Assembly (NCBI GenBank): GCA_963677595.1
Contig: OY782041.1
Span: 3,872,001-3,936,000 of the forward strand
Direction of reading: 5' to 3'
Length of the DNA stretch: 64,000 bases
DNA from: Spirochaetia bacterium
GTDB lineage: Bacteria > Spirochaetota > Spirochaetia > CAKZLE01
This document shows positions 28,600 through 55,598 of the stretch, one piece after another (positions within the stretch are counted from its first letter, which is position 1; every line of letters begins with the position of its first letter). The notes beneath the pieces are model-generated. The model had not been told where the DNA came from and made no database searches. It saw only the letters and a program-made list of their open reading frames with translations. Position numbers and translations under genes: made by a program.

Positions 28600-28756
28600 T
28601 AATCTTCCTTGTTACTATTACAACTGATTGTTATTATATGCACAAATTGTGAATTAATCAACAGATTTCATAACTTTCTAAGGGTGGGTCGCAGCCACTA
28701 TCGAACTGGTCATATCATGTTCATGGTACTTTTATAGTGCTGAAAATATTTTATCC

Positions 28757-28800
28757 TTGACAGACCGCTAATGAATAGCTAGAATGTTCATAACGTATCA
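28757..28800 (+). promoter_or_regulatory. sigma70 promoter of transketolase operon with operator-like motif at +1
   Basis: TTGACA-17-TAGAAT, overlapped by AATGTTCATAACGTATCA (28783-28800). Confidence 0.75.
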
Positions 28801-28875
28801 TTTTAACGAATATAATGTATCGTTAATTTGAATCGAGTATAATCATATGTCAATTAATTAAGCAGGAGTAATAAA

Positions 28876-29712
28876 ATGGATAAAACCGGCATACGCAAAT
28901 TGGAGCTCCAGGCCGCTTATTGCAGAAAAGCAGTTCTGCGGATGGTCAAAGCTAATCATGCAGGTCATCTCGGTCCGGCATTCTCATGCATGGACTTCGT
29001 CACCGCAGTCTATTTTCACGCCATGAAGGTAGACCCTAAGAACCCCAAGTTGCCTGAACGGGACCGTTTCATCCTGTCTGCTGGGCATAAATGTCTTGCA
29101 CAGTATGCTGCACTCTCAGAACTGGGGTTCTTTGATGAGGCTGTCCTCGATACCTTCGGGAGCCTCGATGCGAAGATTCCCGGTCACCCTGACATGCACA
29201 AGCTTCCTGGAGTCGAAGCAAATACCGGTGCATTGGGACATGGTCTCAACCTTGCATGCGGAATGGGGCTTGCCGCCCGGCTTGATGACAACGGATCACG
29301 TGTCTTCGTCATCATGGGTGACGGTGAACTTGCAGAGGGATCTAACTGGGAAGCTGCAGCTGTTGCCGCCCATTACAAACTCGACAATATCGTCGTGATC
29401 GTGGACCAGAACAACCTCCAGATCAGCGGCCGTACCTATGATGTGATGGATTTCACACCGGTAGCAGACCATTTCACCGGTTTCGGCTGGGCTGCTCGAG
29501 AGGTCAACGGACATGATATGGGCGAGATCGTAGACGCACTTGATGCCCTTCCCTTCGAAAAAGGCAAACCCAACCTCATAGTTGCCCATACCACCAAGGG
29601 AAAGGGATGCTCATTTGCAGAAGACCAGGCTTCTTACCATTACTGGAAGACCACCGATGAGACGCTCCTGCAGGCTGAGAAAGAGATAGCAGACATAATA
29701 GAGAGGATGTAG
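28876..29712 (+). CDS. Transketolase, N-terminal (TPP-binding) subunit
   Basis: GHLGPAFS, DRFILSAGH, GHPD, TGALGHG, GDGELAEGSNWEA, TTKGKG. Confidence 0.93.
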   Translation: MDKTGIRKLELQAAYCRKAVLRMVKANHAGHLGPAFSCMDFVTAVYFHAMKVDPKNPKLPERDRFILSAGHKCLAQYAALSELGFFDEAVLDTFGSLDAKIPGHPDMHKLPGVEANTGALGHGLNLACGMGLAARLDDNGSRVFVIMGDGELAEGSNWEAAAVAAHYKLDNIVVIVDQNNLQISGRTYDVMDFTPVADHFTGFGWAAREVNGHDMGEIVDALDALPFEKGKPNLIVAHTTKGKGCSFAEDQASYHYWKTTDETLLQAEKEIADIIERM

Positions 29713-29716
29713 TGAT

Positions 29717-30643
29717 ATGAATGTTGTAGATGCAAAGAAAATCTTAGGTGATGTAATCCTCGAAGAAGGAAAGAAAAACAGTAATGTGGTAGTCGTTTCT
29801 ACCGACAGTGCAAACAGGTCTGGACTGACCGATTTCATCGACAGTTTCCCGGAACGATATTATGAGCTCGGCATCATGGAGCAGGCTGCTGTCGGTGTCT
29901 CCTCAGGTCTTGCAACTGCAGGAAAGATACCCGTGTTCGTCGCTCCTGCCATGTTCGTGACTGGACGTCCTTTCGAGTTCTTCAGGATCGACTTGGGATA
30001 CATGAAGCAGAATGCTAAGATGATCGGTAGGAACTGCGGGATCAACTACTCTGACCTCGGACCTACCCACCACGGGCTTGAGGATATCGCGCTGATCCGT
30101 CTCATCCCTGGAGTCGTCATACTAGCTCCTCAGGACGCAGGAGAACTCGAAGGAGCCCTCCATGCCATGATGGAGTATGAAGGACCGGTCTATCTAAGGG
30201 TCAGCACTGCCCCCATCGCAGAACTGTTCGAGAAGGTCCCCTTCAAGATCGGCGAGGGACGCATGATCAGGGATGGTAAAGATGTGACGATCATCACCAC
30301 CGGTGAAATCACCGCCAATGTCATGGGAGCCGTAGACATCCTCACCGAGCAGGGATACGATCCCCAGGTCATCGGTATGCCGACTGTCCAGCCGATTGAT
30401 GCAGAGATGATCAAGGCTGCTGCTGCAAAGACAGGTAAGATCGTGACGGTGGAAGAGCATTTCAAGACTGGTGGGCTTGGTTCTGCCGTTGCTGAGATCT
30501 GCAGCGAATACTGTCCGGTCCCCGTCAAGCGAATCGCCATGCCTGATGCCTATAACGGCTCCGGAACCTATAAGGACATGATCCTGAAGTTCAAACTTGA
30601 TGCCGCAGGGATTGCTGAATCTATTCAAGAATTCCTGAAATAA
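29717..30643 (+). CDS. Transketolase, C-terminal subunit
   Basis: GIMEQ, GPTHH, GPVYLR, TVEEH..GGLGSAV. Confidence 0.93.
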   Translation: MNVVDAKKILGDVILEEGKKNSNVVVVSTDSANRSGLTDFIDSFPERYYELGIMEQAAVGVSSGLATAGKIPVFVAPAMFVTGRPFEFFRIDLGYMKQNAKMIGRNCGINYSDLGPTHHGLEDIALIRLIPGVVILAPQDAGELEGALHAMMEYEGPVYLRVSTAPIAELFEKVPFKIGEGRMIRDGKDVTIITTGEITANVMGAVDILTEQGYDPQVIGMPTVQPIDAEMIKAAAAKTGKIVTVEEHFKTGGLGSAVAEICSEYCPVPVKRIAMPDAYNGSGTYKDMILKFKLDAAGIAESIQEFLK

Positions 30644-30885: not shown

Positions 30886-32013
30886 TTAGAATCGTACCTG
30901 ATAGATCATCTGTGCATCTTCTTGGGTGAAGGGGACCGGACTGTTCACCAGGAGCCGTTCCTTTGCCATCATCTCTGAGGCAAAGAGCGGTATCTCCTCC
31001 TGCTTCATGCCTAAGGCCCTGAGGAATTGCAACGGCAGGACTTTGGACAGGACCGCTTCGAACTCAAGGAAAAAATCATGTCTTGATGTTTTCACACCAA
31101 GGCGTGTCAGTGGTCTGGCCAGCGTGTCTATGAGCTGGTTCATCCTCTCGTTTTCCACACGTTGGGTATAGAGGTGGAAGACCTGGGAGAAGAACTGGTA
31201 GATCGATACTCCATGGGGTACCTTGTAGTGTTCCCCGAGCGGGTATGCCAAGGCATGGACTGGACCTGCTCCTGCATTGTTGACGGTCACCCCTCCCATG
31301 CAGCTTGCCGTCACGAAGTCCCCAAGGAGTTCCTTCCGATACTCCTCCCCGTTCAGGATGATATCAACGAAACCGTTGATGATCAGGGAACAGGCTTTCA
31401 AGGAATAGGCATCGGTAAAGGGGTTCGCCTTCGGGGACATGAAGGCCTCTGCCGCATGGGCGAGCGCATCGATCGAGCTGCTGTAGAAGATCGTGGGGGG
31501 CAGGCCCGAAAGCAGTTCAGGTATCAGGACTGAATGGTTCGCCGGCATAGCTTCATGGTTCAGGGCTGTCTTCAGGCCGGACTCTGCCATCGTGACGATA
31601 GATCCGTTGGTAACCTCGCTCCCGGTACCACAGGTCGTGGGTACTATGATAAGTCCTTTTCCCTTCACGATCGGGATCTCCCCGTTCATGATGCGCGTGA
31701 TCGGATACGGATCCTTGAGTGAAAGCAGTTTAGCGATATCGATGACCGAACCGCCGCCTATCGCTACGATCCTGCTGCAGGGAATCCCCTGCAGTTCAAG
31801 TGCTATAGCATTGACCATCTCATCAGTCGGCTCCCCGCCACCATACTCATCGCGCAGGATAAGGCTGCACTCCAGTCCAGCCTCTTTGATATACTGTTCA
31901 TAGATGATGGTCTCAGTGAAGATGAGGTCATGCCTGGAGAGCGCGAACTCCCCTGCAAACTTCTTGAAGGTTTCACATCTGTGTATCTGTGGGATAATCT
32001 GTAACTGTTTCAT
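30886..32013 (-). CDS. Iron-containing alcohol dehydrogenase, 4-hydroxybutyrate dehydrogenase-like
   Basis: GEPTDEMV, GGGSVIDIAK, VPTTCGTGSEVT, SSIDALAHAAE, GPVHALAYPLG..Y.VPHG; own promoter TTGACA-17-TACACT at 32065-32093. Confidence 0.85.
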   Translation of the reverse strand: MKQLQIIPQIHRCETFKKFAGEFALSRHDLIFTETIIYEQYIKEAGLECSLILRDEYGGGEPTDEMVNAIALELQGIPCSRIVAIGGGSVIDIAKLLSLKDPYPITRIMNGEIPIVKGKGLIIVPTTCGTGSEVTNGSIVTMAESGLKTALNHEAMPANHSVLIPELLSGLPPTIFYSSSIDALAHAAEAFMSPKANPFTDAYSLKACSLIINGFVDIILNGEEYRKELLGDFVTASCMGGVTVNNAGAGPVHALAYPLGEHYKVPHGVSIYQFFSQVFHLYTQRVENERMNQLIDTLARPLTRLGVKTSRHDFFLEFEAVLSKVLPLQFLRALGMKQEEIPLFASEMMAKERLLVNSPVPFTQEDAQMIYQVRF

Positions 32014-32146: not shown

Positions 32147-32935
32147 TCAATGATAATACCCGGTATATGCATGCACCAGTTCCCTGAACTGACCGATATC
32201 ATGTCCGTAGAGTATCCGGGCAGCATGCGTTTCCTTGTATTTCAGAATCCTCTCCACAGAACGTGAATAGCCTTCTTGGTCTTCCAGAATCGCAGGGAGT
32301 ATAGGTGGGGGGCCAAGATGACGTGCAGAATAGAGCGCATCGGAAGCCAGCAGGAAACTCCCAGAGTCCTGTAACTCGATCAGGAGCCCAAGCATGCCCC
32401 AGGAATGGCCCGAGCCGAGGTTTATGACTGTCAGGCCGTCAAGTACTTGGTATTCACCATCCTGTTCGCTGACTGTTTTCCAAGTGATATCTGCTTGGAT
32501 CCAGCTCTCGATATCTGAGACAAGATGGGCCCCGAGCTCCTCGCCGGCCTCATACCGGGTCATGGTATTGCGCAGCTCGACCTCACTCACGATCACTTCT
32601 GCGTTGGGGAAGTACTTCAGGCAGCCGGCATGGTCAAGATGCAGATGAGAAGCGACCACATAGCGAATATCTTCGAGTCGGTATCCCAGCCGTTCCAGGC
32701 TGTTCGGCAGGAGCTGTGCCTCATCTGCTATATACGGGAACTGCCGGAAAGCTTCAGGCCAGTTACCTAACATGCCTTCTGGATCACAGGCAGCATCGAA
32801 AAGTACCAATCCTTCCGGATGGTCTATCAGCACGGAATAGACTGGTATGTCTATCCACTTCTCTTCACTGCCACCCGTATAGATGGTGACTTCCGGCATC
32901 CTGATGATACCATTATCGAGAACGTACATGTTCAT
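32147..32935 (-). CDS. MBL-fold lactonase, GcL/AaL/AhlS-type N-acyl-homoserine lactonase family
   Basis: YVLDNG, VLIDHPEG, DIRYVVASHLHLDHAGCL, GSGHSWGMLGL, LASDALY, YGHD, C-terminal GYY; start 32935 (alternatives 32953/32956). Confidence 0.9.
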   Translation of the reverse strand: MNMYVLDNGIIRMPEVTIYTGGSEEKWIDIPVYSVLIDHPEGLVLFDAACDPEGMLGNWPEAFRQFPYIADEAQLLPNSLERLGYRLEDIRYVVASHLHLDHAGCLKYFPNAEVIVSEVELRNTMTRYEAGEELGAHLVSDIESWIQADITWKTVSEQDGEYQVLDGLTVINLGSGHSWGMLGLLIELQDSGSFLLASDALYSARHLGPPPILPAILEDQEGYSRSVERILKYKETHAARILYGHDIGQFRELVHAYTGYYH

Positions 32936-32952
32936 GTCATCACCTTGCAGCA

Positions 32953-33918
32953 TCAATTGCCTTCGAAGAACCGCTTGGGGTTCTCCGTACTCATCTTCAT
33001 GAGCAGGTCCAGGTCCACACCCATCTCTACAAGTTTGGGGAATACAACATTATGAAGGAAGAGGAATCGTTCGGGATTGAGTCCCTTTACGTATGCCAGT
33101 GTCTCTTCGGGAAGGGTATCGAACATCGTGGAAATGGACATGAAGTCATGCGAGAGGAGCATGATGTCAGACATACCTGCATCGATCATCCGCTTGATGG
33201 TCTTGATCCGGGTCTCGGTACTGACCGCGAAGTTTCCCGGGAAGGTGATCAGGGGGAGCCTGTCCACACCGATCCAGCAGCCCTGGTCTGCTACCCACTT
33301 GATATAGTCCATATCGGTGGTTTCCAGGATATGGTCGATCTTCACGCGGCTCATATCGAGGCCTTCTTCCTGCAGTATACGAAGCTGGTGCCTGCCTGAT
33401 TCTGCCTGCGGATAGGAATGGAGCATCACCGGGGCCCCAGTCTCCTTCGCTGCGATCGCAACGGCCCGGTGGAGCAGGTCACGTGCAGGGGTAAGCCCCT
33501 CACGGTCCATGGCAGCCTTGATGATCCCGGCCTTGATCCCGGTCTCGCCTACCCCTTTCTGGACATCATCGATGAACAGTGAAGCGATCTTCTCAGCCGT
33601 GAACCTTCCCAGCGTCGGCGCGAACTCCTGCCACCAGCCGGTACAGGCCACGATATGCACACCCGTTGCCTCTGAAGCAGCCTTCAGGCGCTTCACATCA
33701 CGTCCGAGGTCGATCGGGGAAGCTTCTATGACGGACTTGATCCCGACACTCTTCATCTCGTTGAGGTCCCCAATCACCACCTCATCCACATCATCCCGAT
33801 AGAGCTGCGGATAGTTCTCCGGCACCCCTATCGAGGAGGAATAGATATGCTCATGCATCAGGGTATAGCCAAGTTCATCAGGTGTGATCGGTCCGGTGAC
33901 CGTCTGGATCATCTTCAT
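32953..33918 (-). CDS. Phosphotriesterase-like lactonase (PTE family), copy 1
   Basis: QTVTGPI, TLMHEH, GIIKAA (carboxy-Lys), MLHS, IDH, LSHD: complete binuclear site. Confidence 0.9.
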   Translation of the reverse strand: MKMIQTVTGPITPDELGYTLMHEHIYSSSIGVPENYPQLYRDDVDEVVIGDLNEMKSVGIKSVIEASPIDLGRDVKRLKAASEATGVHIVACTGWWQEFAPTLGRFTAEKIASLFIDDVQKGVGETGIKAGIIKAAMDREGLTPARDLLHRAVAIAAKETGAPVMLHSYPQAESGRHQLRILQEEGLDMSRVKIDHILETTDMDYIKWVADQGCWIGVDRLPLITFPGNFAVSTETRIKTIKRMIDAGMSDIMLLSHDFMSISTMFDTLPEETLAYVKGLNPERFLFLHNVVFPKLVEMGVDLDLLMKMSTENPKRFFEGN

Positions 33919-34127: not shown

Positions 34128-34601
34128 CTACTTGAAGACTGCCCCTTCGTATCCGTCCCACATGGCTGCTCCGTCCTTGATCCGTTTGACTCTGAATTCA
34201 GGGAGTCCTTCTCCCCATTTGGTCTGGATGAAAACATCTGCCATCTCGCATGCCATCCTGAGACTGATAGTGGTTCCGCCTAATGCAAGTATATTCGCAT
34301 CATTCACGATCCGGCTGTCACGTGCAGCCCATACGCTCTCTACTCGGGCACATCGTGCGCCTTTGTTCTTGTTCGCCGCGATGCTGATACCGATTCCGGT
34401 ACCGCAAACGACGATCCCGAGTTCTGCTGCATCTGATGTAACTGCCTCTGCAACATTCCGGGCTACATCCATGTACATCACTGGATTGTCAGGATCTGTG
34501 GTCCCGAGGTCAGCAACATCATGTCCCTGTTCAACAAGGTGTTTCTTCAAATCTCCGATCAGTCCGAAACCGCCGGGATCTGCTCCAATCGCTAATTTCA
34601 T
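34128..34601 (-). CDS. RpiB/LacA/LacB family sugar isomerase (non-canonical)
   Basis: CGTGIGISIAANK, NDANILALG; GADPGG in place of GSDHAG. Confidence 0.88.
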   Translation of the reverse strand: MKLAIGADPGGFGLIGDLKKHLVEQGHDVADLGTTDPDNPVMYMDVARNVAEAVTSDAAELGIVVCGTGIGISIAANKNKGARCARVESVWAARDSRIVNDANILALGGTTISLRMACEMADVFIQTKWGEGLPEFRVKRIKDGAAMWDGYEGAVFK

Positions 34602-34663: not shown

Positions 34664-35974
34664 CTACATCATTCCCGTGATCCTCGGAAGCCACTCGACG
34701 ATCCCCGGAACCAATAGCAGCAGGATAAGGTGTGCCGCATCCGCTATGAGGAAGGGTGCGATACCCTTGAAGACCCTCGAAAGCGGCACATCCTTATAGA
34801 GCCCCTTCAGGAAGAAGGCCGTCATGCCCATAGGCGGGGTGAGCCCCCCGATATCACCCATACGTACCATGACGACGCCGAACCATACAGCCGAGAACCC
34901 GCAGGCCTGTACGATCGGCAGGAAGATACCGACGGTAAGCAATACCATCGACATGACTTCAACAACACAACCTAATGCGATATAGATCATCATGATGATG
35001 ACCATCAGCAGCATCGTCGGGAACTGCATGGCCATGACTGTGTCAGAAAGCCAGAACGGCAAACCGCTTACGGCGATCATCTGCTTCAGCACGTTTGCGC
35101 CAACGATGAGAAAGTAGATCATCCCGATCATCTTCGCTGAAGAGATCATTACTTGTTTCAGCTTCTCACGATCGAGTCTTCTTTTCAGCAGTGCCAGGAT
35201 GAACGCACCTAATGCACCGATGGATCCAGCCTCTGTGGGGGTGAACCAACCTGCGAATAGTCCTCCAAGCACGAGGATGACGATGAGGATGATCCCAAGG
35301 CTTCCCGGGAGGGACTTGATCTTCTCCTCCATCGAGGTTTTCGGTCCACGCGGTCCATAACTCGGGTTTATCTTGCAGTTGATCGCGATGACGATCATAT
35401 AGAATACCGCAAGGATCAAACCGGGAATAATACCAGCGATCAGGAGCGTACCGATTGAAGTACCTGAGATCATACCGTAAATAATGAACATGGCACTCGG
35501 TGGTATAAGGTCTCCCAACTCACTTCCTGCCGCGACCGACCCGATCGCGAGTTCCGTCGAGTACTTGTACTTCCTCATCTGCGGGATGGCGATCGCCCCG
35601 ATACTCACGATAGCTGCCCAGGGGAACGCAGTAACAGCCGCAAAGACTGCACAGGCACCGATAGTCGCGATCGCCAAGCCTCCAGGGATCTGGCCGAGCC
35701 AGGTCGAAGCAGTCTTGTAGAGGTCAGAACCCATCTCCGAGACCGTGATGATCTGAGCCATGAGGATGAACATCGGCAATACTGCGAAGTCATAACTCGA
35801 TACGACCGAGAATACGTTCGTTCCAAGGACAGTGATCGCTCCCCTCCAGCTCGTCATCAGGACTAACCCGATGAATCCAGTGGTCAGCATAGAGAAACCG
35901 ATCTTTACACCCATCATGGAAAGGATGAAGAAAGCTGCTATACAGATCAGCCCGATAGCAATAGCACTAGTCAT
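34664..35974 (-). CDS. dctM: TRAP transporter large permease (DctM)
   Basis: About 12 TM segments, LPMFILM, LIPPS, FTPTEA, GLTPPMG. Confidence 0.92.
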   Translation of the reverse strand: MTSAIAIGLICIAAFFILSMMGVKIGFSMLTTGFIGLVLMTSWRGAITVLGTNVFSVVSSYDFAVLPMFILMAQIITVSEMGSDLYKTASTWLGQIPGGLAIATIGACAVFAAVTAFPWAAIVSIGAIAIPQMRKYKYSTELAIGSVAAGSELGDLIPPSAMFIIYGMISGTSIGTLLIAGIIPGLILAVFYMIVIAINCKINPSYGPRGPKTSMEEKIKSLPGSLGIILIVILVLGGLFAGWFTPTEAGSIGALGAFILALLKRRLDREKLKQVMISSAKMIGMIYFLIVGANVLKQMIAVSGLPFWLSDTVMAMQFPTMLLMVIIMMIYIALGCVVEVMSMVLLTVGIFLPIVQACGFSAVWFGVVMVRMGDIGGLTPPMGMTAFFLKGLYKDVPLSRVFKGIAPFLIADAAHLILLLLVPGIVEWLPRITGMM

Positions 35975-36536
35975 TATTCTGCTCCTCTCCTCCAAGTAGA
36001 ACTATGGAATCGTCTTGTTCATCGAATATCGTCGCGACTTCTTTTCCCATCGCCAGCCTGATAAAATCTACTGTCTCGATGATTATGGCAAGGGCCAGAA
36101 GAACCAGGCCGAAGACCCAGACCCACCGAAAGATCCAGGTAGGGAGATTCCCGGAGAGCGTCTTCTCGAAAACCAGGGTCTTCGTATAGGCATACTTCCC
36201 GCCTGCATAGATCATCATGAAGATAATACCGATACTGATGAGCCCTGATATTGACTCACTTACCTTCCTCATACCGGATGGCATCTTTCCAAGGACTAAA
36301 TCCATTACAGTATGGTCCTGAAGCAATGCACAATATGGAATAGCAAGAGATGCCGCAAAGGCTGCAGAAAGACCTGCAAGGTCATAGATATAACGCATAG
36401 CCAGGCCGAACGGCCTGATAAAGATATTGATCACCATGAAGGTGGTACCCACGATCAGCGCGACACCTGCGATGATGCCCAGCAGATTGGCTATGGTCTT
36501 AGTCCACTTGATCTTCAACCTGTCATATTCACCCAT
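35967..36536 (-). CDS. dctQ: TRAP transporter small permease (DctQ)
   Basis: Four TM segments, HTVMDLV motif, located between dctP and dctM. Confidence 0.85.
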   Translation of the reverse strand: MGEYDRLKIKWTKTIANLLGIIAGVALIVGTTFMVINIFIRPFGLAMRYIYDLAGLSAAFAASLAIPYCALLQDHTVMDLVLGKMPSGMRKVSESISGLISIGIIFMMIYAGGKYAYTKTLVFEKTLSGNLPTWIFRWVWVFGLVLLALAIIIETVDFIRLAMGKEVATIFDEQDDSIVLLGGEEQNND

Positions 36537-36593
36537 AAGCCTTCTTCCTCCAAAGAAAAACTGTAAACTAGGACGCTAAACTTTAGACATTCA

Positions 36594-36630
36594 ACAATAC
36601 AGGACCTGCTCATGCAGGATCCTGTATTGT
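36594..36630 (-). terminator. Intra-operon stem-loop after dctP
   Basis: ACAATACAGGA-CCTGC tcat GCAGG-a-TCCTGTATTGT. Confidence 0.65.
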
Positions 36631-36652
36631 GATTTAAAGTATTTAGCGATTC

Positions 36653-42404: not shown

Positions 42405-42424
42405 GTAATCTTATCTAAACTCTA

Positions 42425-43537: not shown

Positions 43538-43702
43538 TTGAGACCTCCTCTTTTTTAACTTCATTATGTAAGGCAAACGCTTACTAATTAAAGCCATTCT
43601 TATGATACCACACTCATCAGGAGAACAATACTATAAGAAATACGATCAGACCTACTCTTCAGTATGACCGAATCATGTAACAATCAGCTTTATTGCTCTT
43701 TC

Positions 43703-43937: not shown

Positions 43938-44474
43938 CTATTTCAGCTCCAGACCTACCTTCTCATCGACGAAATCAGGGTTGAATACTTTAGCCAGGGG
44001 TCCCACGACCGTATCACCGCATTCGAACATGACTCCTAGCTGTTCACGAACGTCATAGAATTTACAGGTCTTACCCTGGGCTGACGCATCAAGCATGACT
44101 GGTATACCATTCTCCTCCATCGCCTCACTGAACCCGTCACGGTCTTCCAGCAGAACGTTCACATGATGGATCCCGGGGCCGTGTTCCCGCAGCCAGGTCG
44201 CATACATATCATCCCCATCCTTGTCGAGCGGTTCGATGATCTCGAAATCAAGGCCGCCCATGTCGAACCGTACGATATTGATCCAGAGTTCTGACTCCTC
44301 CCCATAGTATTTTGGGTTCTCGTACTTGCCTACTGCAGCCAGATCCCTGGTATTCTTCTGAATGATGGTAGACTCATCTATATTGAAATATTTCTGCCAT
44401 TGTGCAAGTGTGGCCTTAGCGTCCCGGACGCAAACGCCGACTTGGAACATACTCTTCATATTTGTCTTCTTCAT
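43938..44474 (-). CDS. VOC family protein (methylmalonyl-CoA epimerase/glyoxalase-like)
   Basis: FQVGVCVRD, FEIIEPL, HGPGIHHV, GVMFE metal ligands; start 44474 with GGAGG RBS (alternative 44486). Confidence 0.85.
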   Translation of the reverse strand: MKKTNMKSMFQVGVCVRDAKATLAQWQKYFNIDESTIIQKNTRDLAAVGKYENPKYYGEESELWINIVRFDMGGLDFEIIEPLDKDGDDMYATWLREHGPGIHHVNVLLEDRDGFSEAMEENGIPVMLDASAQGKTCKFYDVREQLGVMFECGDTVVGPLAKVFNPDFVDEKVGLELK

Positions 44475-44515
44475 CTCTTCCTCCATATACGACTGTTTGG
44501 TTTCTGCTGTATTGT

Positions 44516-46459: not shown

Positions 46460-48009
46460 AGGTAGCACCACCTTGCGATTTCCTGTCTAGTCAATAAACC
46501 GTTTTCAGGTGTTAGCTCTGCCTTAATCTCTCCATTATGCAGAGCGATCATCCTTGTGCAGATATTCACCAGCTGTTCCGGTTCTGTTGAGAAAATGACC
46601 ATCGCCACTTGTTTATCGGCAGCTTCTTTGATCGCTTCGAAGATCCTGATTCTTGAGGCAGGATCGACTCCGTATGTAGGATCATCAAGAACGAATACTT
46701 TCGGACAAGTCGAGAGCCATTTTGCCATGATGGCTTTTTGCTGATTCCCGCCGGAGAACTTCCCAAAGAGCATGGAGTAGTTGTTACCAGGATGTATATC
46801 GAAGATATCAACGCACATCGCCATAGTTTTCTTTGCCAGCTTACTCTTGTTCCAATATTGTATGAGATTAGGCAGTAATAAATTCTCCTGTAATGTACAT
46901 GACATAATGCATCCCCTAGTCGGCCTATCGCTCGGGAGCACACTTACCCCGGATTGATATGCCTTGCGGGGACTGAGGCTCTTCGGGAGCACTTTGTTTT
47001 CTACCATATACGTCCCGCTCTCAATCTCTAAATCTCCACCAAGAACCATTGGCAATTCTTTTACACCGCTGTCCGGATTTCCGATGATGCCAAGAATCTC
47101 CCCGCTCCGAACGGTAAAGGAAACATCATTCAGTCCTTTTGCAACAAGATGCTGCAGCTCGAGAATCGAAGAAGTTTTTTTTGGAGGTTGCTTATCGAGC
47201 AACTTCCACAAATCCTCCATGGAAAAGGTAGTCTGTTCTTCTCCGATCTTGATATCAACATCATTTCCTTGTCGGATCATTTTTGAGATGATGAAATTCT
47301 CATTGACATCATCTTTCAATCCAGTGAATACCAGTTTCCCACCATTGAGGATCGATATATCATCACAGTAGCTCATCACTTCTTTCATTCGGTGTGTTAC
47401 CATGACGACCGGTATGCCAAGATTAGCAACATAATGCACTCTTTGGAGAAAACTCTCTGTCTCGGATTCGGGTATCGATGCATCAGCTTCATCAAGAACA
47501 AGGAGTTTCGTAGATTTCATCTCCTCCTCATTGCCCATTGCCATAGCCATCGCTATCATGTTTCTGTCTGCAGCAGTTAGATCATCAGTAAGCATCTGTG
47601 GGTCTACCTTGATGTTATACAACTCGAGCAGTTCGTTGATATAGGAATTGACCCGTTTCCAATCGATTCTGAAACCCTTTTTGGGAAACCCTTTGAATAG
47701 CGCAACGCATTCAGCTACTGTGAACGTATTCAGTAGGGGGCTTTCCTGATGGACTACCCGAACGCCAAGGCTGTCTGCCTGGCGAGGGGTTAGAATATCA
47801 CTAACTATATTTCCATTAAAATCTATACTGGCATTACAATTCTTATCAGGGTGATAGTTCCCGGTAAGGACCTTTACTAAGGTCGATTTTCCGCTCCCAT
47901 TTGCCCCGAGGACCGCATGGATCCTGTTCTCTTCAAACCGGAAACTGGCATCTGATAAAGCCTTAACACCGGGGAATGAAACGGATATATTCTTAGCTAT
48001 AATAGGCAT
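46456..48009 (-). CDS. Sugar ABC transporter ATP-binding protein, operon 2
   Basis: GANGSGKS, LDEADASIPE, FSGGNQQK, LDDPTYGVD, C-terminal ARWCY. Confidence 0.94.
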   Translation of the reverse strand: MPIIAKNISVSFPGVKALSDASFRFEENRIHAVLGANGSGKSTLVKVLTGNYHPDKNCNASIDFNGNIVSDILTPRQADSLGVRVVHQESPLLNTFTVAECVALFKGFPKKGFRIDWKRVNSYINELLELYNIKVDPQMLTDDLTAADRNMIAMAMAMGNEEEMKSTKLLVLDEADASIPESETESFLQRVHYVANLGIPVVMVTHRMKEVMSYCDDISILNGGKLVFTGLKDDVNENFIISKMIRQGNDVDIKIGEEQTTFSMEDLWKLLDKQPPKKTSSILELQHLVAKGLNDVSFTVRSGEILGIIGNPDSGVKELPMVLGGDLEIESGTYMVENKVLPKSLSPRKAYQSGVSVLPSDRPTRGCIMSCTLQENLLLPNLIQYWNKSKLAKKTMAMCVDIFDIHPGNNYSMLFGKFSGGNQQKAIMAKWLSTCPKVFVLDDPTYGVDPASRIRIFEAIKEAADKQVAMVIFSTEPEQLVNICTRMIALHNGEIKAELTPENGLLTRQEIARWCYL

Positions 48010-48035
48010 TTTTCTTCTCCCTTTTCCCAGTACAT

Positions 48036-48992
48036 CTATTTGATTTCAATAGGAGATACCCGCTGAGACAACCACATGGAAAACATCAGGATAAGACCGC
48101 TGAAGATGTTTTCACTCCACGTAGGGGCACCTGCCATCTGTATACCATTGACTCCGACGGTTATTAATGCAACTGACAGTACCAGTCCCGGCACATTGAT
48201 ATATCCTGGTTTAAAAACTGCTTTGCTCAAAAACACCGTCGCATATGCAGGAAGTAGTAAAGAAGTCCCATAACCGGAGCTTGCTGCACCTAACTGACCT
48301 AGAAGTATGATTCCGGCAATAGATGCGAAGAATCCAGCGCTTGTGAATGCGAAGATACGAACATATGCTGTCTTGATCCCAGCGAGGAACGCAATCTTCT
48401 CTGAAGTCCCAACTGCATACATCTGACGCCCAATGGGGGTTTGGGTGAATAGCAAATGAAGTCCTATTGCAGCAACTATGAAAAACAGTACACAGTAACC
48501 CAGATGCCCGAAACCATCACGCGTGAATGCCAGCAGCCAAGCCGGGGAATCAATGTAAATATTGCCGCTGTTGGTAATCGCCTGTGCCAATCCCGATAGT
48601 GTCATACCCACTGCCAGGGTCACGATAAATGAACTTATCTTCATATGTACAACGATAAGTCCGTTAATCAGTCCTGCAGTAATCCCGCATAGTATCGGAA
48701 TTATCACTATCAAAGCACTGTTTACTCCAAGATTTTCAAGATATGCAGCAATTACCATGGTGAAGGTTAGATTGAACCCTATTGAGAGATCGAACTCCCC
48801 GGTTACGATGATGAACAAGCCGGCAAGAGAAAGAACTGCACTTGCCATCTTGGTCAGAAACATATTACCGAAATTCATGGTTGTTAAAAACGTATCTGAT
48901 ATCAATCCGAATACCAACAACAATGCAGCGAAAACAATAATCATGCTGAATCTGCTGATAAGCTCGGAGATCTTTGTTGTTTTTGTTGTCAT
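48036..48992 (-). CDS. Sugar ABC transporter permease, operon 2
   Basis: Paralogue of 41379-42356 (GEFDLS, SSFIVTL, LLPAYA.VFLSK..FKPGY); start 48992 with GGAGG RBS. Confidence 0.92.
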   Translation of the reverse strand: MTTKTTKISELISRFSMIIVFAALLLVFGLISDTFLTTMNFGNMFLTKMASAVLSLAGLFIIVTGEFDLSIGFNLTFTMVIAAYLENLGVNSALIVIIPILCGITAGLINGLIVVHMKISSFIVTLAVGMTLSGLAQAITNSGNIYIDSPAWLLAFTRDGFGHLGYCVLFFIVAAIGLHLLFTQTPIGRQMYAVGTSEKIAFLAGIKTAYVRIFAFTSAGFFASIAGIILLGQLGAASSGYGTSLLLPAYATVFLSKAVFKPGYINVPGLVLSVALITVGVNGIQMAGAPTWSENIFSGLILMFSMWLSQRVSPIEIK

Positions 48993-49027
48993 TGAAATCA
49001 GCCTCCATTCCATTGATTTCAAGAATA

Positions 49028-49057
49028 TTTGCAGGGAGAGAAACCTCTCCCTGCAAA
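49028..49057 (-). terminator. Stem-loop after SBP gene 2
   Basis: Perfect 13-bp stem TTTGCAGGGAGAG-aaac-CTCTCCCTGCAAA. Confidence 0.7.
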
Positions 49058-49090
49058 CGATCTGATAATATCTATGAATGTAGGTTCAGA

Positions 49091-50185
49091 CTACTCCCAT
49101 AATGCATAGAATTTCGACTTATAATCAAAATCAGGAGCCCATGCTCCATCCGATGGAACATTGGTAATATCAAGAATAGCATATGGTGTATTCTCTCCAT
49201 GCGGCTCGAACAGGGGGTCACCGTTCAGATGCCGAATCATCTGGTCCATTGCAGCGTAACCAAGATAGGTGTTGTCATACGCAGCCGATGCGGAAGCAAC
49301 TGTATCCTGACTTATGAGTGCACACATCTCAATATTACCGAGCACACTGGCTACCTTCACGTCAGTAAAACCTGCAAGTTCCAATGCCTCACTAACCGGT
49401 ACTGCTGCCGGGTCGAAGGGGAAGAATATGAACTCTGTATCAGGATTATTGGTCAGATAGGTAGTCACCTGTCGGTTCAGCTGATCTCCGATCAAATCGA
49501 AGGTGAAATATCCTACAGGATCATAATCCATCCCTAATTCCTCGAATCCTTCATAGAGGCCTTTTCTTGTGTTGTCTATCGAGTAGGCTCCCTCAAAGTC
49601 CCAACATGCGACCTTACCGCTGCCTTCAATATTATTGTACATCCATTCCGCCATGGCGTGTCCCATTTCGTTGTAACTTGCACCGACATCATACACATAG
49701 TCATATTCATTTCTTATGACAGGATTGGGAGTATCGGTACCGGCTGAAGCACAACCTATTGGGATGCCAGCTTCTACAGCAGCTTTCACACCTGCCTGTA
49801 GAGAACTAGATTCCTGTGCTGTCATAAGAATAGCATCTGCACCCCATGCGATAGCACTCATGATTGCAGGGTTCATGACATCAGGTGATCCCTGACCATC
49901 CCAAGTCTGCACTTCCCAGCCGAAATGATTTGCGATCTCTACCATTGCATCTGCAGGGATACTCGCACCGGACATCGATGCGTGACCAATGATAACCGCA
50001 AGCTTCAAATCTTCAGGAGCTTTTGAAGGGGTCGTTGGGCCTTCATACCCTTTGTCGTACGCAGGTGCGGCAGCTTTTACAGGAGCTGCTGGTTCCGCCG
50101 GCTTCTCCTGGCTACCACCTGCAAACAGCGAGAAACTGACAACCATGATAAGCAAAATAGAAACGATTCTTTTACTTTTCAACAT
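49091..50185 (-). CDS. Sugar ABC transporter substrate-binding protein, operon 2
   Basis: Signal ...SLFAGGSQE; paralogue of 42425-43537 (PFDPAA, AAYD.TYLGYA, DYKS.FYALW). Confidence 0.9.
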   Translation of the reverse strand: MLKSKRIVSILLIMVVSFSLFAGGSQEKPAEPAAPVKAAAPAYDKGYEGPTTPSKAPEDLKLAVIIGHASMSGASIPADAMVEIANHFGWEVQTWDGQGSPDVMNPAIMSAIAWGADAILMTAQESSSLQAGVKAAVEAGIPIGCASAGTDTPNPVIRNEYDYVYDVGASYNEMGHAMAEWMYNNIEGSGKVACWDFEGAYSIDNTRKGLYEGFEELGMDYDPVGYFTFDLIGDQLNRQVTTYLTNNPDTEFIFFPFDPAAVPVSEALELAGFTDVKVASVLGNIEMCALISQDTVASASAAYDNTYLGYAAMDQMIRHLNGDPLFEPHGENTPYAILDITNVPSDGAWAPDFDYKSKFYALWE

Positions 50186-50472: not shown

Positions 50473-51684
50473 TTACAATCTTGATGCCAGTGCCAGCCCG
50501 ATCAGGCACGCGATGCCGGGGACGATGAACGTCCAACTCGTAGGGTTGCCGTTCACGCTGACTACTCCGGCGATGATCGGGGAGAGGATCCCTGCTGCCA
50601 GGATCGCGATCCCGGTCAGCCCGAGGACTGACCCGATATGCTTCGTCCCGAAGAGATCCGTGATGAGTACAGGGTTGATCCCGGCGCTTCCTCCGTAGGC
50701 GAAGGCAACGAAGAAGATGACGAGGAGGAAGACGATCCCCTTCGCGAAGATACCCAGGATGACGCATGCGATCATGATCAGGTAGAGGCTCTGCATCACA
50801 CGCTTCGACCCGATGTAATCGGACATCTTTGCGGCGACCATCCTGCCGCTCGCCGATGCCGCGCCGGTGAGCATGATGCCGCCGACTGCCAGGCTCTCGG
50901 AGAGTCCCCTGGCCTGTCCAAGGGTCTTGAAGATGGGGTTCAGGATGTAATAGGTCGGGATCAGCAGCATCAGGCTCGCGAGCAGGATATAGAATTTCTT
51001 CATCCTGATTACCTCACCTGCTGAGTAATGCCGCTGGTTCTCCTTCTTCGCAGATCCTTTGCGCAGCCCGTCCTCGAACCCTCCTGGGGGGTCGGAGACG
51101 AACAGGCCGAAGATGCTGAACATCACCGCATAGAAGACAGCGAGCATCCGGAACGTAGCGACGACGCCGAAGGATGACAGGAGGCGATTCACGACCGGGG
51201 CGAAGAGGATGGTTGCCGCACCGAAGGCGGTGACCGTGACCCCGCTTGCCAGGCCGCTCTTGTCGACCCACCATTTCTGGTTCGAGGAGACGTTCGTCGT
51301 GTAGACGATACCGCTGCCGAACCCGGTGATGACGCCATAGGTCAGATAGATCAGCCAGGGCATATGGACCGGGACGAGTGAAGATAGGAGCATACCGCAG
51401 GTAAAGAAGGCTCCACCGGTATAGACCGTGAAACGTGGACCGGTGCGGTCATAGATCCTGCCGCCGATGATGTTCCCCAGTACATTCGCCACGATCATGA
51501 CATAGAAGGTCATGGATGCCTTGGTTGGGTTCCAGTCGAAGTAGGTCATGACCGGTTCCTGGAATACTCCCCATATATAATAGATTCCGATACAGAGCTG
51601 CAGGATCACGCTTACTACCAGATGCCTGACCCTGCTCGGGGCCCTCAGGTTCCCCGTAAGCCCGATACTCACGTCTTCACTCAT
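50473..51684 (-). CDS. MFS transporter, oxalate/formate antiporter (OFA)-like
   Basis: 12 TM segments, GIYYIWGVF, GRIYDRTGPR, KWWVDKSGLASG, DLFGTKH. Confidence 0.88.
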   Translation of the reverse strand: MSEDVSIGLTGNLRAPSRVRHLVVSVILQLCIGIYYIWGVFQEPVMTYFDWNPTKASMTFYVMIVANVLGNIIGGRIYDRTGPRFTVYTGGAFFTCGMLLSSLVPVHMPWLIYLTYGVITGFGSGIVYTTNVSSNQKWWVDKSGLASGVTVTAFGAATILFAPVVNRLLSSFGVVATFRMLAVFYAVMFSIFGLFVSDPPGGFEDGLRKGSAKKENQRHYSAGEVIRMKKFYILLASLMLLIPTYYILNPIFKTLGQARGLSESLAVGGIMLTGAASASGRMVAAKMSDYIGSKRVMQSLYLIMIACVILGIFAKGIVFLLVIFFVAFAYGGSAGINPVLITDLFGTKHIGSVLGLTGIAILAAGILSPIIAGVVSVNGNPTSWTFIVPGIACLIGLALASRL

Positions 51685-52921: not shown

Positions 52922-53764
52922 TCACACCGTGCCGGTCGTATTGCAAATCGTAAGCTGTTCCTTCACGAACCCGACAGCAGCAGCGAATGCCGCCTGTGTG
53001 AGCCCGGGATACCGTCTCTCCCCGCTGTTGTACATATCGCCGGCAGCGGCCCCGGCTGCGATCATCAGCCCAGTGAAGATATTCACCTTCTTCACACCGA
53101 GACTGATCGTGTGCCTGATATCATCGGCAGGCAGGCCGGTGGACCCGTGGAGCACCAGGGGAAGGTCGACCGCTTTCGAGATCGCCTCAAGCCGGTCGAA
53201 GTCAAGCTTCGGCTCTTCCCTGAACAGTCCATGCACCGTACCGAATGCCACGGCCAGGGCATCTATCTGCGTACTGTCGGCAAAGCGTACCGCATCCTCT
53301 ACCCTGGTATATTTCGCGCTGTCAGGCATACCCTTGCCGGTAGTGCCCTCAGGCCCGGAGACGTGCCCGATCTCTGCCTCAACGCTCACACCGGCAGCTC
53401 GTGAGAACTCGACGACCCGGTTGGTCAATGCGATGTTCTCATCGATCGGGAGGGCCGACCCATCGAACATGACTGAGGAGCAGCCGTAGCGTATAGCTCT
53501 CTCGGCAGCCTCTATACTGGTCCCATGGTCCAGGTGGAGGGCTGCCGGTATAGTAGAGGCCCTGCAGCGCCCAGCGATAGCCGGGATGACATAGGGAGCA
53601 TAGGGTTTGTGAATGAGACTCCCGATCATGATGATCACCGGGGATCCCGCCTCTTCCGCGGCAGAGAGGATTGCCTCTGCCATGAGGTAGTCCGTGGTCC
53701 CGACAGCGGCGACCGCCGAACCTTCCTCAACCTTCAATATTTCCTGTAATGTTATCAGTCCCAT
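52922..53764 (-). CDS. Class II ketose-bisphosphate aldolase family protein
   Basis: LHLDHG, SVMFDGS, VEAEIG, GTVHG, LVLHGSTG, KVN. Confidence 0.9.
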   Translation of the reverse strand: MGLITLQEILKVEEGSAVAAVGTTDYLMAEAILSAAEEAGSPVIIMIGSLIHKPYAPYVIPAIAGRCRASTIPAALHLDHGTSIEAAERAIRYGCSSVMFDGSALPIDENIALTNRVVEFSRAAGVSVEAEIGHVSGPEGTTGKGMPDSAKYTRVEDAVRFADSTQIDALAVAFGTVHGLFREEPKLDFDRLEAISKAVDLPLVLHGSTGLPADDIRHTISLGVKKVNIFTGLMIAAGAAAGDMYNSGERRYPGLTQAAFAAAVGFVKEQLTICNTTGTV

Positions 53765-53852
53765 GCCGACAGTATAGTATGTTTCCGCGTTCTGGTGAAT
53801 ATATCTTTCACCTGAACTTCTTCAGCATGTGTGTATTGTGTTCATCTTGCTT

Positions 53853-54281
53853 TCAAGGGTCGATCCGGTAGAGGTCTACCCGCTCCTGCACACCGGAGGC
53901 CGACACCAGGAGGATGTTGGCGCAGGGGGTATCCTCAGCAGTCCTGATGAAGAACCGTGCATCCGCAGCCCGCTTCCTGAACTCAGGCAGGTCGGCATAG
54001 CCGATCTCCTGCTTCGTCAGCAATCCCGTGACCTCATCATGCATGTGGGGGTTGGCCGTCTTGACGCACTCCATGAGTACCGCTTCCTGCACGACCATCT
54101 CACCTATGACGGCCTTGAGTGTCTGCATGAGGCCCGGTATGCCCCGAACGAGGGCTAAGTCTATCCTGACTGCGCCCTGTGGAATGGGAAAGCCCATGTC
54201 GCAGATCACGAATGAGTCGAAATGTCCTAAGGCAGTCAATTCCCGAATGAGTCCCGGGTGCAGTATGCCGTCCTTCTTCAT
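53853..54281 (-). CDS. rbsD: RbsD/FucU family pyranase (mutarotase)
   Basis: MKK.GILH..L, LGH.D...ICD.GFPIP, RIDLAL, IRT.E.TP.ANI. Confidence 0.85.
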   Translation of the reverse strand: MKKDGILHPGLIRELTALGHFDSFVICDMGFPIPQGAVRIDLALVRGIPGLMQTLKAVIGEMVVQEAVLMECVKTANPHMHDEVTGLLTKQEIGYADLPEFRKRAADARFFIRTAEDTPCANILLVSASGVQERVDLYRIDP

Positions 54282-54386
54282 CTGTTACCCTCCTGTCCTG
54301 TTTATTATACGCTTCCAGGACAGCGGGATAGGGAGATAAGGCAGCAATGAGATAAGAGCGTAAGGGAACAGGTCCTTGGTAGCGGA

Positions 54387-55148
54387 TCAGCCTGCTACGA
54401 CGACCTCGACGTTGAGCTCTGCCAGGTGCTTCTTCAGTTCCTTGTCCTTGATGGGCTTCGACGTGATGATCATGTCAAGCTCCTCGAACTTGGCAAAGAG
54501 CACCATGCCGGAGACATCGAACTTGCTGGAGTCTGCGAGCAGGATCTTCTTGCTGGCTGACTGGATCATGGCTTTCTTGATACTCGCCTGGAAGGGGGAG
54601 ACACAGGTCAGCCCGTCGGGATGGCGGATCCCCGTCGTCGACAGGAAGAGCAGCGGTGCATGGATCTTCTTCATGAACTCCTCGGCATCAGGACCGATGA
54701 CCGCCTGCTGCCGGTGAGCGAGATACCCGCCCGTGATCGTCGTGGATACATCAGTATTGGCGAACGCGTTGACGATCGCCACGGAGTTCGTCACGACCGA
54801 CAGGTTAGCCTTGTTGACCAGCTGGTTTGCCAGGGCCAGGGTCGTCGTACCGGAATCCATGATGATCGACATGCCGTCATCGACAAGTTCTGCGGCGTAC
54901 TTAGCGATCGCGAGCTTCTCCGATGAGAACATGACGTTCCTCGTCGGGAAGGGGTTCACGATCTTCGCAGCCCCGCGGGTTCGCATGATAGCACCTGTCT
55001 TCTCGAGAAACGTCAGGTCCCGCCTGATCGTTGCCGGTGTCGCGTCGAGCCTCTTGATGATATCCTCTACCAGCATGGTCGATTCCAGTGAGAGCATCTT
55101 GATAATTTCCTGACGTCTGAATTCCGTATGCACTTTTACCACTTCCAA
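54387..55148 (-). CDS. DeoR/GlpR family transcriptional regulator
   Basis: TPATIRRDL, RTRGAA, EKLAIAKYAA, MDSGTTT, VVTNS, LLADSSKF. Confidence 0.93.
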   Translation of the reverse strand: MEVVKVHTEFRRQEIIKMLSLESTMLVEDIIKRLDATPATIRRDLTFLEKTGAIMRTRGAAKIVNPFPTRNVMFSSEKLAIAKYAAELVDDGMSIIMDSGTTTLALANQLVNKANLSVVTNSVAIVNAFANTDVSTTITGGYLAHRQQAVIGPDAEEFMKKIHAPLLFLSTTGIRHPDGLTCVSPFQASIKKAMIQSASKKILLADSSKFDVSGMVLFAKFEELDMIITSKPIKDKELKKHLAELNVEVVVAG

Positions 55149-55598
55149 TTCTTTGATTTATAACAGCTCGAATGTTTGCACTTTACAATCAAAAACGAAC
55201 ATATATATTCCCTATTATATGTTCACATCTCAAATAATTCAATTAAATTATTCAAAAATTACCGTATTTCGCTCAGTTACTCGAACGTACCATGATCAAT
55301 TCCCAAAATCTCTATTCTATCTCTCTACCGTACCTCTGGATCCCGCTGAGCCCTCCTTCACATCAAATGATGCATCATTGTAATAATCACTATTTTTCCT
55401 ATAATGATTAATTATTTCTTATTTACGATACGTTATGTGCAAATATACCATGACCATACAGGGCTGTCAATAGGTATCCATACGGCAAGAGGACGTACTC
55501 CCACGGCTGATTTGGGCACGTTCTCGAAAATTATCAGGAAAAAGAACACAGCCTGGTTTTCTATGATAGAATAGGGAAAAAGTGATTTGGAGTGAACC

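What the first reader, a model, noticed from the sequence alone, without database searches (positions are those of the whole stretch)
28741..55230. Kinase-free lactone/sugar-acid catabolic island: candidate undescribed pathway
Seen: about 26.5 kb of contiguous catabolic genes between housekeeping blocks. It holds three lactonase-family enzymes, a 4-HB-dehydrogenase-like Fe-ADH, split transketolase, RpiB-like isomerase, TIM-barrel epimerase, VOC enzyme, class II aldolase, RbsD-like mutarotase, five transport systems and a DeoR regulator, yet no FGGY, PfkB or ROK kinase and no PTS. Established: the sulfo-TK sulfoquinovose pathway uses split TK (SqwGH), an RpiB-family isomerase (SqwI) and an Fe-ADH (SqwF) without a kinase, because the substrate anion replaces phosphate. 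Inference: here a lactone is imported by ABC or its open acid by TRAP, and is hydrolysed. The carboxylate may stand in for phosphate while TK and the isomerase strip C2 units. The leftover semialdehyde could be reduced by the Fe-ADH and exported by the OFA-type MFS. The substrate cannot be read from sequence.
Basis: partly seen in the sequence, partly recalled or inferred. Interest (0 to 1): 0.85.

Follow-up and report, generated by a model that had tools for sequence, protein, structure and literature searches.

The report
Kinase-free double-transketolase sugar-acid pathway
This gene island is one of three pieces of a rare, conserved gene set of anaerobic bacteria that likely breaks down an as yet unidentified sugar acid without first phosphorylating it, by clipping off two-carbon units with two specialised transketolases, much as the known sulfoquinovose pathway does for a sulfo-sugar.

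Summary
The inventory is right: 25 genes, five transport systems, no sugar kinase or PTS gene. The kinase-free reading gains real support. The RpiB has lost its phosphate-binding and ring-opening residues across a 43-member clade, the same losses seen in this genome's separate SqwI-like enzyme. The island transketolase (TK1) lacks the canonical phosphate site and has Leu for the hydroxyl-binding Asp.

But the island is incomplete. In Clostridia-type loci the RpiB sits with TK1, a second split transketolase (TK2, sister of the SqwH-like protein), two or three zinc dehydrogenases and the Fe-ADH; no sugar kinase was found in 29 loci. Here TK2 and the dehydrogenases lie in two other loci.

Likely route: sugar acid → keto acid → TK2 → RpiB → TK1 → C3–C4 semialdehyde → hydroxy acid, exported. 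Lactonases are accessory (4 of 11 locus groups), the island TRAP binder lacks the carboxylate arginine, and the aldolase is not co-conserved. It is not sulfo-TK. The substrate is unknown; a deoxy-aldonate fits best. The scan noted analogous kinase-free transketolase operons on other DNA (e1-3312028, e1-6581501); sequence look-ups did not link them to this one.

The parts
28876..29712 (+). Split transketolase TK1, N subunit (core)
   Evidence: PF00456; 62-68% homologues beside the RpiB clade
29717..30643 (+). Split transketolase TK1, C subunit; canonical phosphate site and Asp469 equivalent replaced (K7, R34, N106, L114, T164) (core)
30886..32013 (-). Fe-ADH of the 4-hydroxybutyrate dehydrogenase type; Y257 and R353 kept (core)
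   Evidence: best PDB hit 30SM Cvir-Hbd2, E 1.4e-74; residues; 10 of 11 locus groups
32147..32956 (-). Metallo-beta-lactamase-fold lactonase, AhlS/AttM-like (accessory)
   Evidence: PF00753; NF047976 281 bits, cut-off 475; 3 of 11 locus groups
32953..33918 (-). PTE-family lactonase 1 (accessory)
   Evidence: PF02126; H22, H24, K134, H167, H196, D258 invariant in 50 aligned rows
34128..34601 (-). RpiB-family isomerase lacking phosphate-binding and ring-opening residues, catalytic Cys66 kept (core marker)
34664..37699 (-). TRAP transporter DctM, DctQ, DctP; DctP has Trp180 at the usual Arg position
37696..38538 (-). AP_endonuc_2 TIM barrel, predicted ketose 3-epimerase (E147, D171, H202, E247)
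   Evidence: 5 of 11 locus groups
38830..43597 (-). Sugar-type ABC importer 1 (binding protein, two permeases, ATPase)
43938..44486 (-). VOC protein, methylmalonyl-CoA-epimerase-like (Q15, E82, H108, E155)
   Evidence: 6 of 11 locus groups
44516..45481 (-). PTE-family lactonase 2 (50% identical to PTE 1)
45509..50185 (-). Sugar-type ABC importer 2, low GC3 (0.43-0.54)
50473..51684 (-). OFA / monocarboxylate-type MFS, predicted exporter
   Evidence: NF049980 260 bits (cut-off 320), TIGR00890; 37-39% homologues in L090, L095
51681..52874 (-). Second MFS transporter, no close homologue in related loci
52922..53764 (-). Class II aldolase; keeps the motifs of its genome paralogues; not co-conserved
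53853..54281 (-). RbsD/FucU pyranase; seen with DeoR and the RpiB in one short locus (L099)
54387..55148 (-). DeoR-family regulator, co-conserved (42-66%)

Best explanation
The island is one of three loci in this genome that together hold a gene set found as one kinase-free cluster in Clostridia-type anaerobes, and this set likely ferments an unphosphorylated sugar acid by two rounds of transketolase cleavage. Predicted steps: the acid enters by TRAP, or its lactone by ABC and is opened by the lactonases; a Zn dehydrogenase oxidises the next-to-last carbon to give a keto acid; TK2 moves a C2 unit to glyceraldehyde-3-phosphate; the RpiB turns the open-chain aldose acid into a ketose; the TIM barrel or VOC protein sets the C3 configuration where needed; TK1 moves a second C2 unit; the leftover C3-C4 semialdehyde, which likely has no 2-hydroxyl, is reduced by the Fe-ADH and leaves by the OFA-type MFS. 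The best-fitting substrates are deoxy-aldonates shaped like sulfofructose with a carboxylate tail in place of sulfonate (end product 3-hydroxypropionate or 2,4-dihydroxybutyrate); ordinary hexonates ending in glycolate fit second best. Shown: gene content, co-occurrence, residue changes, family trees. Inferred: every reaction and the substrate.
For: RpiB clade: H9→P 40 of 43, H99 lost 43 of 43, R110→T 41 of 43, R133 and H134 lost, C66 kept 43 of 43; the next 77 hits keep these residues in 73-75 rows. Roles of the residues from PMC4783025 passages. The SqwI-like RpiB of this genome's own sulfo-TK-type cluster shows the same losses and lies on the same side of the tree, apart from canonical RpiB (100/99). 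TK1-C: K, R/N, N, L, T/N at the five sites in 15 of 15 distinct rows; TK2-C keeps the R520 site, has Asn for Asp469, and is sister to the SqwH-like protein (100/97) (roles from PMC11387542). Of 11 locus groups with at least 10 kb: TK2 10, ZnADH-b 10, Fe-ADH 10, TK1 9. G219 has the whole set in one run between a V-ATPase operon and a gene that reads as a transposase, without kinase. No FGGY, PfkB or ROK hit in 29 loci or among 56 unlabelled ORFs. Fe-ADH keeps Y256/R348 equivalents of Cvir-Hbd2 in 13 of 13 rows. ZnADH-b is closest to PDB 5VM2 and sorbitol dehydrogenases. The third locus's DctP has the Arg motif. Cleavage of 5-keto-gluconate by transketolase has precedent (PMC11066805 passages).
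Against: No biochemistry or expression data. The genome has many kinases that could act in trans, and an FGGY kinase gene converges on the second locus's DeoR 5 bp away. The class II aldolase keeps the motifs of its paralogues and would need a phosphorylated substrate. TK1 must still bind an acceptor, probably phosphorylated, although its canonical phosphate site is gone. Most other split-TK paralogues of this genome also depart from the canonical residues (1 of 9 listed keeps R, H, D, R), so TK residue loss alone is weak. Island DctP lacks the Arg, and its nearest folds are 21-23% identical TRAP binders that do not point to sugar acids. L106 holds the RpiB without the core; L102 lacks TK1 in the DNA held. 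No phosphoketolase in G000 or G219, so the energy yield would be modest. Many loci are related Clostridia, so counts overstate independence.
Confidence: 0.62

Rival explanations
1. Same kinase-free chemistry, but the distal group is not a plain carboxylate: a sulfonate (an unstudied sulfo-alditol or sulfo-sugar) or an amino-acid or other substituent (for example a reduced Amadori compound).
For: TK2 and the RpiB are sisters of the SqwH-like and SqwI-like proteins; island DctP lacks the Arg motif; ZnADH-b is sorbitol-dehydrogenase-like.
Against: No YihQ, SqvD or SqvB-type gene in the island or among the ORFs scanned; the Fe-ADH scores 130 bits on the sulfoacetaldehyde reductase model (cut-off 700) and is closest to a 4-hydroxybutyrate dehydrogenase; lactonases imply a carboxylate.
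Confidence: 0.15
2. The substrate is phosphorylated by a kinase encoded elsewhere, and the enzymes work on sugar phosphates with remodelled binding sites.
For: 16 FGGY, 15 PfkB, 17 ROK matches in the genome; FGGY next to locus 2; aldolase in the island; TK1 has basic residues K7, R34, R105 and TK2 keeps R164; the related E. coli ydj operon uses a kinase on carboxylated ketoses (PMC9602453 passage).
Against: No kinase in any of 29 homologous loci; RpiB has lost four of five basic phosphate-side residues as SqwI-like proteins have.
Confidence: 0.12
3. The island is a mosaic of separate modules (a lactone/omega-hydroxy-acid uptake module, two sugar ABC operons, an aldolase block), and only TK1, RpiB, Fe-ADH and DeoR belong to the conserved pathway.
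For: GC3 spread 0.43-0.79; PTE and DctP relatives share contig lengths in several records where the RpiB clade does not appear; aldolase and second MFS not co-conserved; Fe-ADH plus AttM-like lactonase resembles the BlcBC gamma-butyrolactone module (recalled).
Against: L102 and L107 hold ABC, PTE, VOC and (L102) TIM, DctP at 39-77% identity inside the core cluster; a shared half-site motif is dense in 4 island intergenic regions and the locus-3 promoter (post hoc).
Confidence: 0.11

Closest known systems
Sulfo-TK sulfoquinovose pathway (YihQ, SqvB, SqvD, SqwGH, SqwI, SqwF or SqwD/SqwKL, SqwE); read as passages in PMC9594981 and PMC11659671
   Same: Split TK, RpiB-family isomerase, aldehyde-removing enzyme, exporter, no kinase; RpiB and TK2 are sister families of this genome's SqwI-like and SqwH-like proteins.
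   Different: Two different TKs instead of one; entry by Zn dehydrogenases and lactonases instead of glycosidase and isomerase; 4HB-type Fe-ADH; this genome has its own sulfo-TK-type cluster at 1.452-1.472 Mb, whose RpiB is only 31% identical.
E. coli ydj operon (YdjEFGHIJKL); seen only through a passage of PMC9602453
   Same: Zn dehydrogenases, class II aldolase, MFS, DeoR, AKR; acts on long sugars with a terminal carboxylate. ZnADH-b's best PDB hit is 5VM2, which I recall as YdjJ.
   Different: Uses a PfkB kinase and aldol cleavage, has no transketolase or RpiB.
Proposed tartrate route: L-idonate → 5-keto-D-gluconate → transketolase → tartrate semialdehyde (PMC11066805 passages)
   Same: Aldonate 5-dehydrogenase followed by TK cleavage of an unphosphorylated keto acid.
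   Different: One cleavage, oxidation to tartrate, plant or engineered enzymes; no dedicated bacterial gene cluster described there.
[quoted passage not shown]
   Same: Metal ligands, Tyr256 and Arg348 equivalents kept.
   Different: Asn270 is replaced (Ile/Val/Asn among homologues); different gene context; activity untested.

Membership tests
Sulfo-TK pathway | Split transketolase SqwGH orthologue | tested here: not met
   Island TK1-C is a separate lineage; TK2-C (other locus) is a sister clade of the SqwH-like protein, not inside it. Reference was this genome's SqwH-like protein, not the characterised enzyme.
Sulfo-TK pathway | RpiB-family SqwI orthologue | tested here: inconclusive
   Same residue losses and same side of the tree, but 31% identity and a separate clade; the SqwI-like row has a long branch.
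Sulfo-TK pathway | SQ isomerase SqvD, SqvB (PF16161) and sulfoquinovosidase YihQ in the cluster | tested here: not met
   Absent from the island and from 56 unlabelled ORFs of homologous loci; PF16161 and GH31 matches lie elsewhere in the genome.
Sulfo-TK pathway | Sulfoacetaldehyde reductase or CoA-acylating dehydrogenase | tested here: not met
   Fe-ADH 130 bits on SarD model, cut-off 700; closest structure is a 4HB dehydrogenase. No SqwF-specific model was available.
Sulfo-TK pathway | No sugar kinase needed | tested here: met
   No kinase gene in island or 29 homologous loci; a kinase acting in trans is not excluded.
Sulfo-TK pathway | Growth on sulfoquinovose with excretion of isethionate or sulfoacetate | not testable with these tools
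   Needs culture or enzyme assay.
Canonical ribose-5-phosphate isomerase B | H9/H10, R110, R133, H134 phosphate side and H99 ring opening | tested here: not met
Canonical ribose-5-phosphate isomerase B | Catalytic Cys66 with Asp8, Thr68, Asn100, Arg137 | tested here: met
   C66 43 of 43, N100 43 of 43, R137 42 of 43, D8 and T68 41 of 43
Housekeeping transketolase | R358, S385, H461, R520 and D469 (E. coli numbers) | tested here: not met
   the mapping from human/Carboxydothermus columns to E. coli numbers is recalled; the paralogue at 940609 keeps R, H, D, R in the same columns
4-Hydroxybutyrate dehydrogenase (Fe-ADH) | His3Asp metal site, Tyr256, Arg348 | tested here: met
4-Hydroxybutyrate dehydrogenase (Fe-ADH) | Activity on 4-hydroxybutyrate / succinic semialdehyde | not testable with these tools
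   NF058672 111 bits, cut-off 500; needs assay
ydj-type kinase/aldolase ketouronate pathway | PfkB kinase paired with class II aldolase | tested here: not met
   No PfkB in island or loci; aldolase in 0 of 11 locus groups

The most novel reading that the evidence does not exclude
A natural carboxylate counterpart of sulfoglycolysis: a dedicated pair of transketolases and a phosphate-blind RpiB strip four carbons from a deoxy sugar acid (KDO-derived 2-deoxy-heptonate or 3-deoxy-octonate, with 2-deoxyribonate or 3-deoxyhexonate entering at the second cut) and excrete 3-hydroxypropionate or 2,4-dihydroxybutyrate; TK1 would be a natural version of the engineered Asp469 variants that accept aldehydes without a 2-hydroxyl.
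Probability: 0.33. Interest if true: 0.88.

Novelty: new variant of a known kind. Interest (0 to 1): 0.74.

Why it matters
If right, kinase-free transketolase catabolism is not limited to sulfo-sugars, and anaerobes have an undescribed fermentation route for sugar acids. The marker residues (RpiB P9/V99/T110; TK1-C N106/L114) make the set easy to find. TK1 and TK2 would be natural enzymes for unphosphorylated and anionic substrates, a long-standing target of transketolase engineering. The G219 operon gives a compact 13-gene set that can be rebuilt in vitro.

Tried and rejected
Genome-collection scan with the PTE alignment filled up with distant relatives (30-44%) and gave no useful context; those 80 loci were not analysed, apart from using L054 as a centre. 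PTE search of 41 relatives: only distant matches outside G000. RpiB clade at E ≤ 1e-50: 1 of 400 genomes in a class-level sample around G041, 2 of 56 in G219's family, only G000 among 401 of its own phylum: rare, not shown absent. DctP clade: 0 of 400 (only 5 candidates scored per genome). Metagenome loci could not be extended. Folds of DctP and the ABC binding protein were confident (pLDDT 93, 91) but matched many binders at 14-23% identity, so no ligand can be read. ESM Atlas gave only generic TIM-barrel clusters. Rfam found only a tRNA outside the island. Sequencing runs: no RNA holder listed. The operator motif is suggestive only: half-site count ≥5 in 17 of 1224 intergenic regions, including 4 of 9 island regions and the locus-3 promoter, but not locus 2; it was defined after seeing the data, and the TIM promoter was missed by the gap list. 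Rejected: sulfo-TK membership (entry genes absent, separate cluster exists); isosaccharinate (no hydroxyl next to the ketone for TK, by reasoning); apiose TK route (needs a kinase, recalled). The YdjI paper was not held. No complex prediction was run.
Full report
Observation. The two TK subunits are on the + strand and converge on 23 genes of the − strand. Gaps are at most 340 bp. The genome (4.33 Mb, one contig; called a spirochaete in earlier scan notes) has 16 FGGY, 15 PfkB and 17 ROK matches, none in the window. It is rich in split TKs (11 N and 13 C hits), so a split TK alone would be ordinary here.

The RpiB is the marker. Its homologues split at a score gap (149 to 125 bits) into 43 close rows and 77 others. 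The 43 keep C66 (43), N100 (43), R137 (42), D8 and T68 (41), but have Pro for His9 (40), no His99 (43), Thr for Arg110 (41), and no Arg133 or His134; the 77 keep these in 73-75 rows (one of the 77 is a clade fragment). PMC4783025 (passages) assigns the His10, Arg133 and Arg137 equivalents to phosphate binding, lists the Arg110 and His134 equivalents under substrate recognition, and ties His99 to ring opening. So the enzyme likely acts on an open-chain, unphosphorylated aldose.

An internal reference exists. At 1.452-1.472 Mb the genome has DUF4867, a GH31 above the PRK10426 cut-off, an SQ-isomerase-like and an acylating sulfoacetaldehyde-dehydrogenase-like gene (both below cut-off), split TK and RpiB: a sulfo-TK-type cluster by content, as defined in PMC9594981 and PMC11659671 (passages). 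Its RpiB, and two metagenome RpiBs next to SQ-isomerase-like genes (L117, L118), have lost the same residues. In the tree the canonical rows form their own clade (100/99), leaving the island clade and the SqwI-like rows on one side (unrooted, narrow outgroup, one long branch).

Neighbourhoods. A metagenome scan gave 60 loci. I analysed the 28 best (L089-L116) and left out 32 weaker ones (31-47% identity) except L117 and L118. A class-level search added G219. These 29 collapse to 19 groups, 11 with at least 10 kb. Among the 11: TK2 10, ZnADH-b 10, an a/c-type ZnADH 10 (both types in 7), Fe-ADH 10, TK1 9, DeoR 8, VOC 6, TIM 5, a lactonase 4, aldolase 0, RbsD 0 (RbsD occurs in the short locus L099). 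L106 has the RpiB without the core. No FGGY, PfkB or ROK was found in six frames of any of them, and Pfam on 56 unlabelled ORFs found only a housekeeping cytidylate kinase. G219 carries DeoR, then ZnADH-a, RpiB, TK1, ZnADH-b, TK2, OFA-MFS, TRAP, ZnADH-c, Fe-ADH, VOC, TIM in one run. Named members of the RpiB clade are Clostridia MAGs.

In this genome the set is split in three. Locus 2 (994083-1006377) has DeoR, ZnADH-b, TIM, an AKR, VOC, ZnADH-a, TK2, a second RpiB (86% identical), MFS, an aldehyde:ferredoxin oxidoreductase and ThiF. Locus 3 (3424966-3429054) has a TRAP system and ZnADH-c. The island supplies TK1, the Fe-ADH, lactonases and importers.

Transketolases. PMC11387542 (passage) names R358, S385, H461, R520 as the phosphate site and D469 as a hydroxyl binder. 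Aligned through the human and Carboxydothermus enzymes (E. coli numbering recalled), TK1-C has K, R/N, N, T/N and Leu at these sites in 15 of 15 distinct rows, with a new invariant Arg105; TK2-C has T/K, C, A/D, R and Asn, with an invariant Arg83, in 12 of 12. TK2-C is sister to the SqwH-like protein (100/97); TK1-C is a separate lineage. D469T is a known propanal-accepting change (PMC10787763 passage), so TK1 likely releases an aldehyde without a 2-hydroxyl. Caution: only 1 of 9 other TK-C paralogues listed keeps R, H, D, R.

Other enzymes. The Fe-ADH is closest to Cvir-Hbd2, a C4-selective 4-hydroxybutyrate dehydrogenase; its Tyr256 and carboxylate-recruiting Arg348 (PMC13495136 passages) are kept in 13 of 13 clade rows. 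The TIM barrel has the four catalytic residues of ketose 3-epimerases, weakly UlaE-like (residue roles recalled). The VOC protein is methylmalonyl-CoA-epimerase-like. ZnADH-b is closest to 5VM2 and sorbitol dehydrogenases. The locus-3 DctP has the Arg motif typical of carboxylate binders; the island DctP has Trp in 46 of 46 clade rows (role of the Arg recalled).

Mechanism (inferred). Acid or lactone uptake; oxidation of the next-to-last carbon; TK2 cut; RpiB isomerisation; optional epimerisation; TK1 cut; reduction and export of the leftover. A deoxy-aldonate explains most marks at once: a 6-deoxy-fructose-shaped donor for a SqwH sister, a 4-deoxy-erythrose-shaped aldose for a SqwI sister, an aldehyde without 2-hydroxyl for TK1, and a C3-C4 omega-oxo acid for the Fe-ADH. 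Plain hexonates (5-keto-gluconate → tartrate semialdehyde → 3-oxo-tetronate → glyoxylate) also fit, and the first cut has precedent (PMC11066805 passages). I cannot choose the substrate from sequence. Neither G000 nor G219 has phosphoketolase, so C2 units would pass through the pentose phosphate shunt.

Against. No assay or expression data; kinases could act in trans, and an FGGY gene converges on locus 2; the aldolase is unexplained; the island DctP may bind something else; the loci are related and few.

Prior work. Three full-text searches aimed at such a pathway listed no paper whose title or abstract start describes it; subscription journals, including the primary sulfo-TK papers, are mostly outside this library, and no supplements were read. 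PMC7661550 (passages) and the first third of PMC13663882 describe split TKs as biocatalysts only. Earlier scan notes describe analogous kinase-free TK operons in other genomes; look-ups with the RpiB, TK1-N and TK2-N sequences did not return them.

Verdict. Observation confirmed; interpretation partly supported and extended. It works like sulfo-TK but is not a member. New variant of a known kind, interest 0.74.

Noticed in passing
G000:C1:1452781-1472049 (L157, L158): A sulfo-TK-type sulfoquinovose cluster: DUF4867, YihQ-type GH31, SQ-isomerase-like gene, acylating sulfoacetaldehyde dehydrogenase-like gene, ABC importer, ROK regulator, split TK, RpiB; also a Gfo/Idh/MocA gene, amidohydrolase and Na:sulfate symporter in between.
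   Followed up: partly
G000:C1:629472-634699 (L159): Two split-TK pairs in tandem, both in the SqwH-like clade, next to a PGK-like and an archaeal-type GAPDH-like gene, TIM barrel, Gfo/Idh/MocA and IolB-family genes; a second undescribed double-transketolase cluster.
   Followed up: partly
G000:C1:994083-1006377 (L008): Locus 2 of the pathway adds an aldehyde:ferredoxin oxidoreductase, ThiF and an AKR with a 4Fe-4S domain, which suggests an oxidative branch for the leftover aldehyde; L106 also has an AFOR beside the RpiB.
   Followed up: partly
G000:C1:1006383-1016004: Genes that read as an ascorbate-type block (FGGY kinase, AraD-like, UlaG-like, tripartite transporter) directly beyond locus 2; only the FGGY was confirmed by a family scan.
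   Followed up: no
G000:C1:2229024-2242533 (L160): A ydj-like cluster: class II aldolase, Zn dehydrogenase 45% identical to ZnADH-b, PfkB kinase, second Zn dehydrogenase, TIM barrel, AFOR.
   Followed up: partly
   Followed up: no
window:28600-28875, 38539-38829, 43598-43937, 50186-50472, 55149-55598: Repeated ATCA…TGAT and ATGTTCA half-sites near promoter-like boxes; candidate DeoR operators, also upstream of locus 3.
   Followed up: partly
window:57254-58447: A 397-aa protein with a shikimate kinase domain only in its C-terminal half (217-385), probably a fused shikimate enzyme, before chorismate synthase.
   Followed up: no
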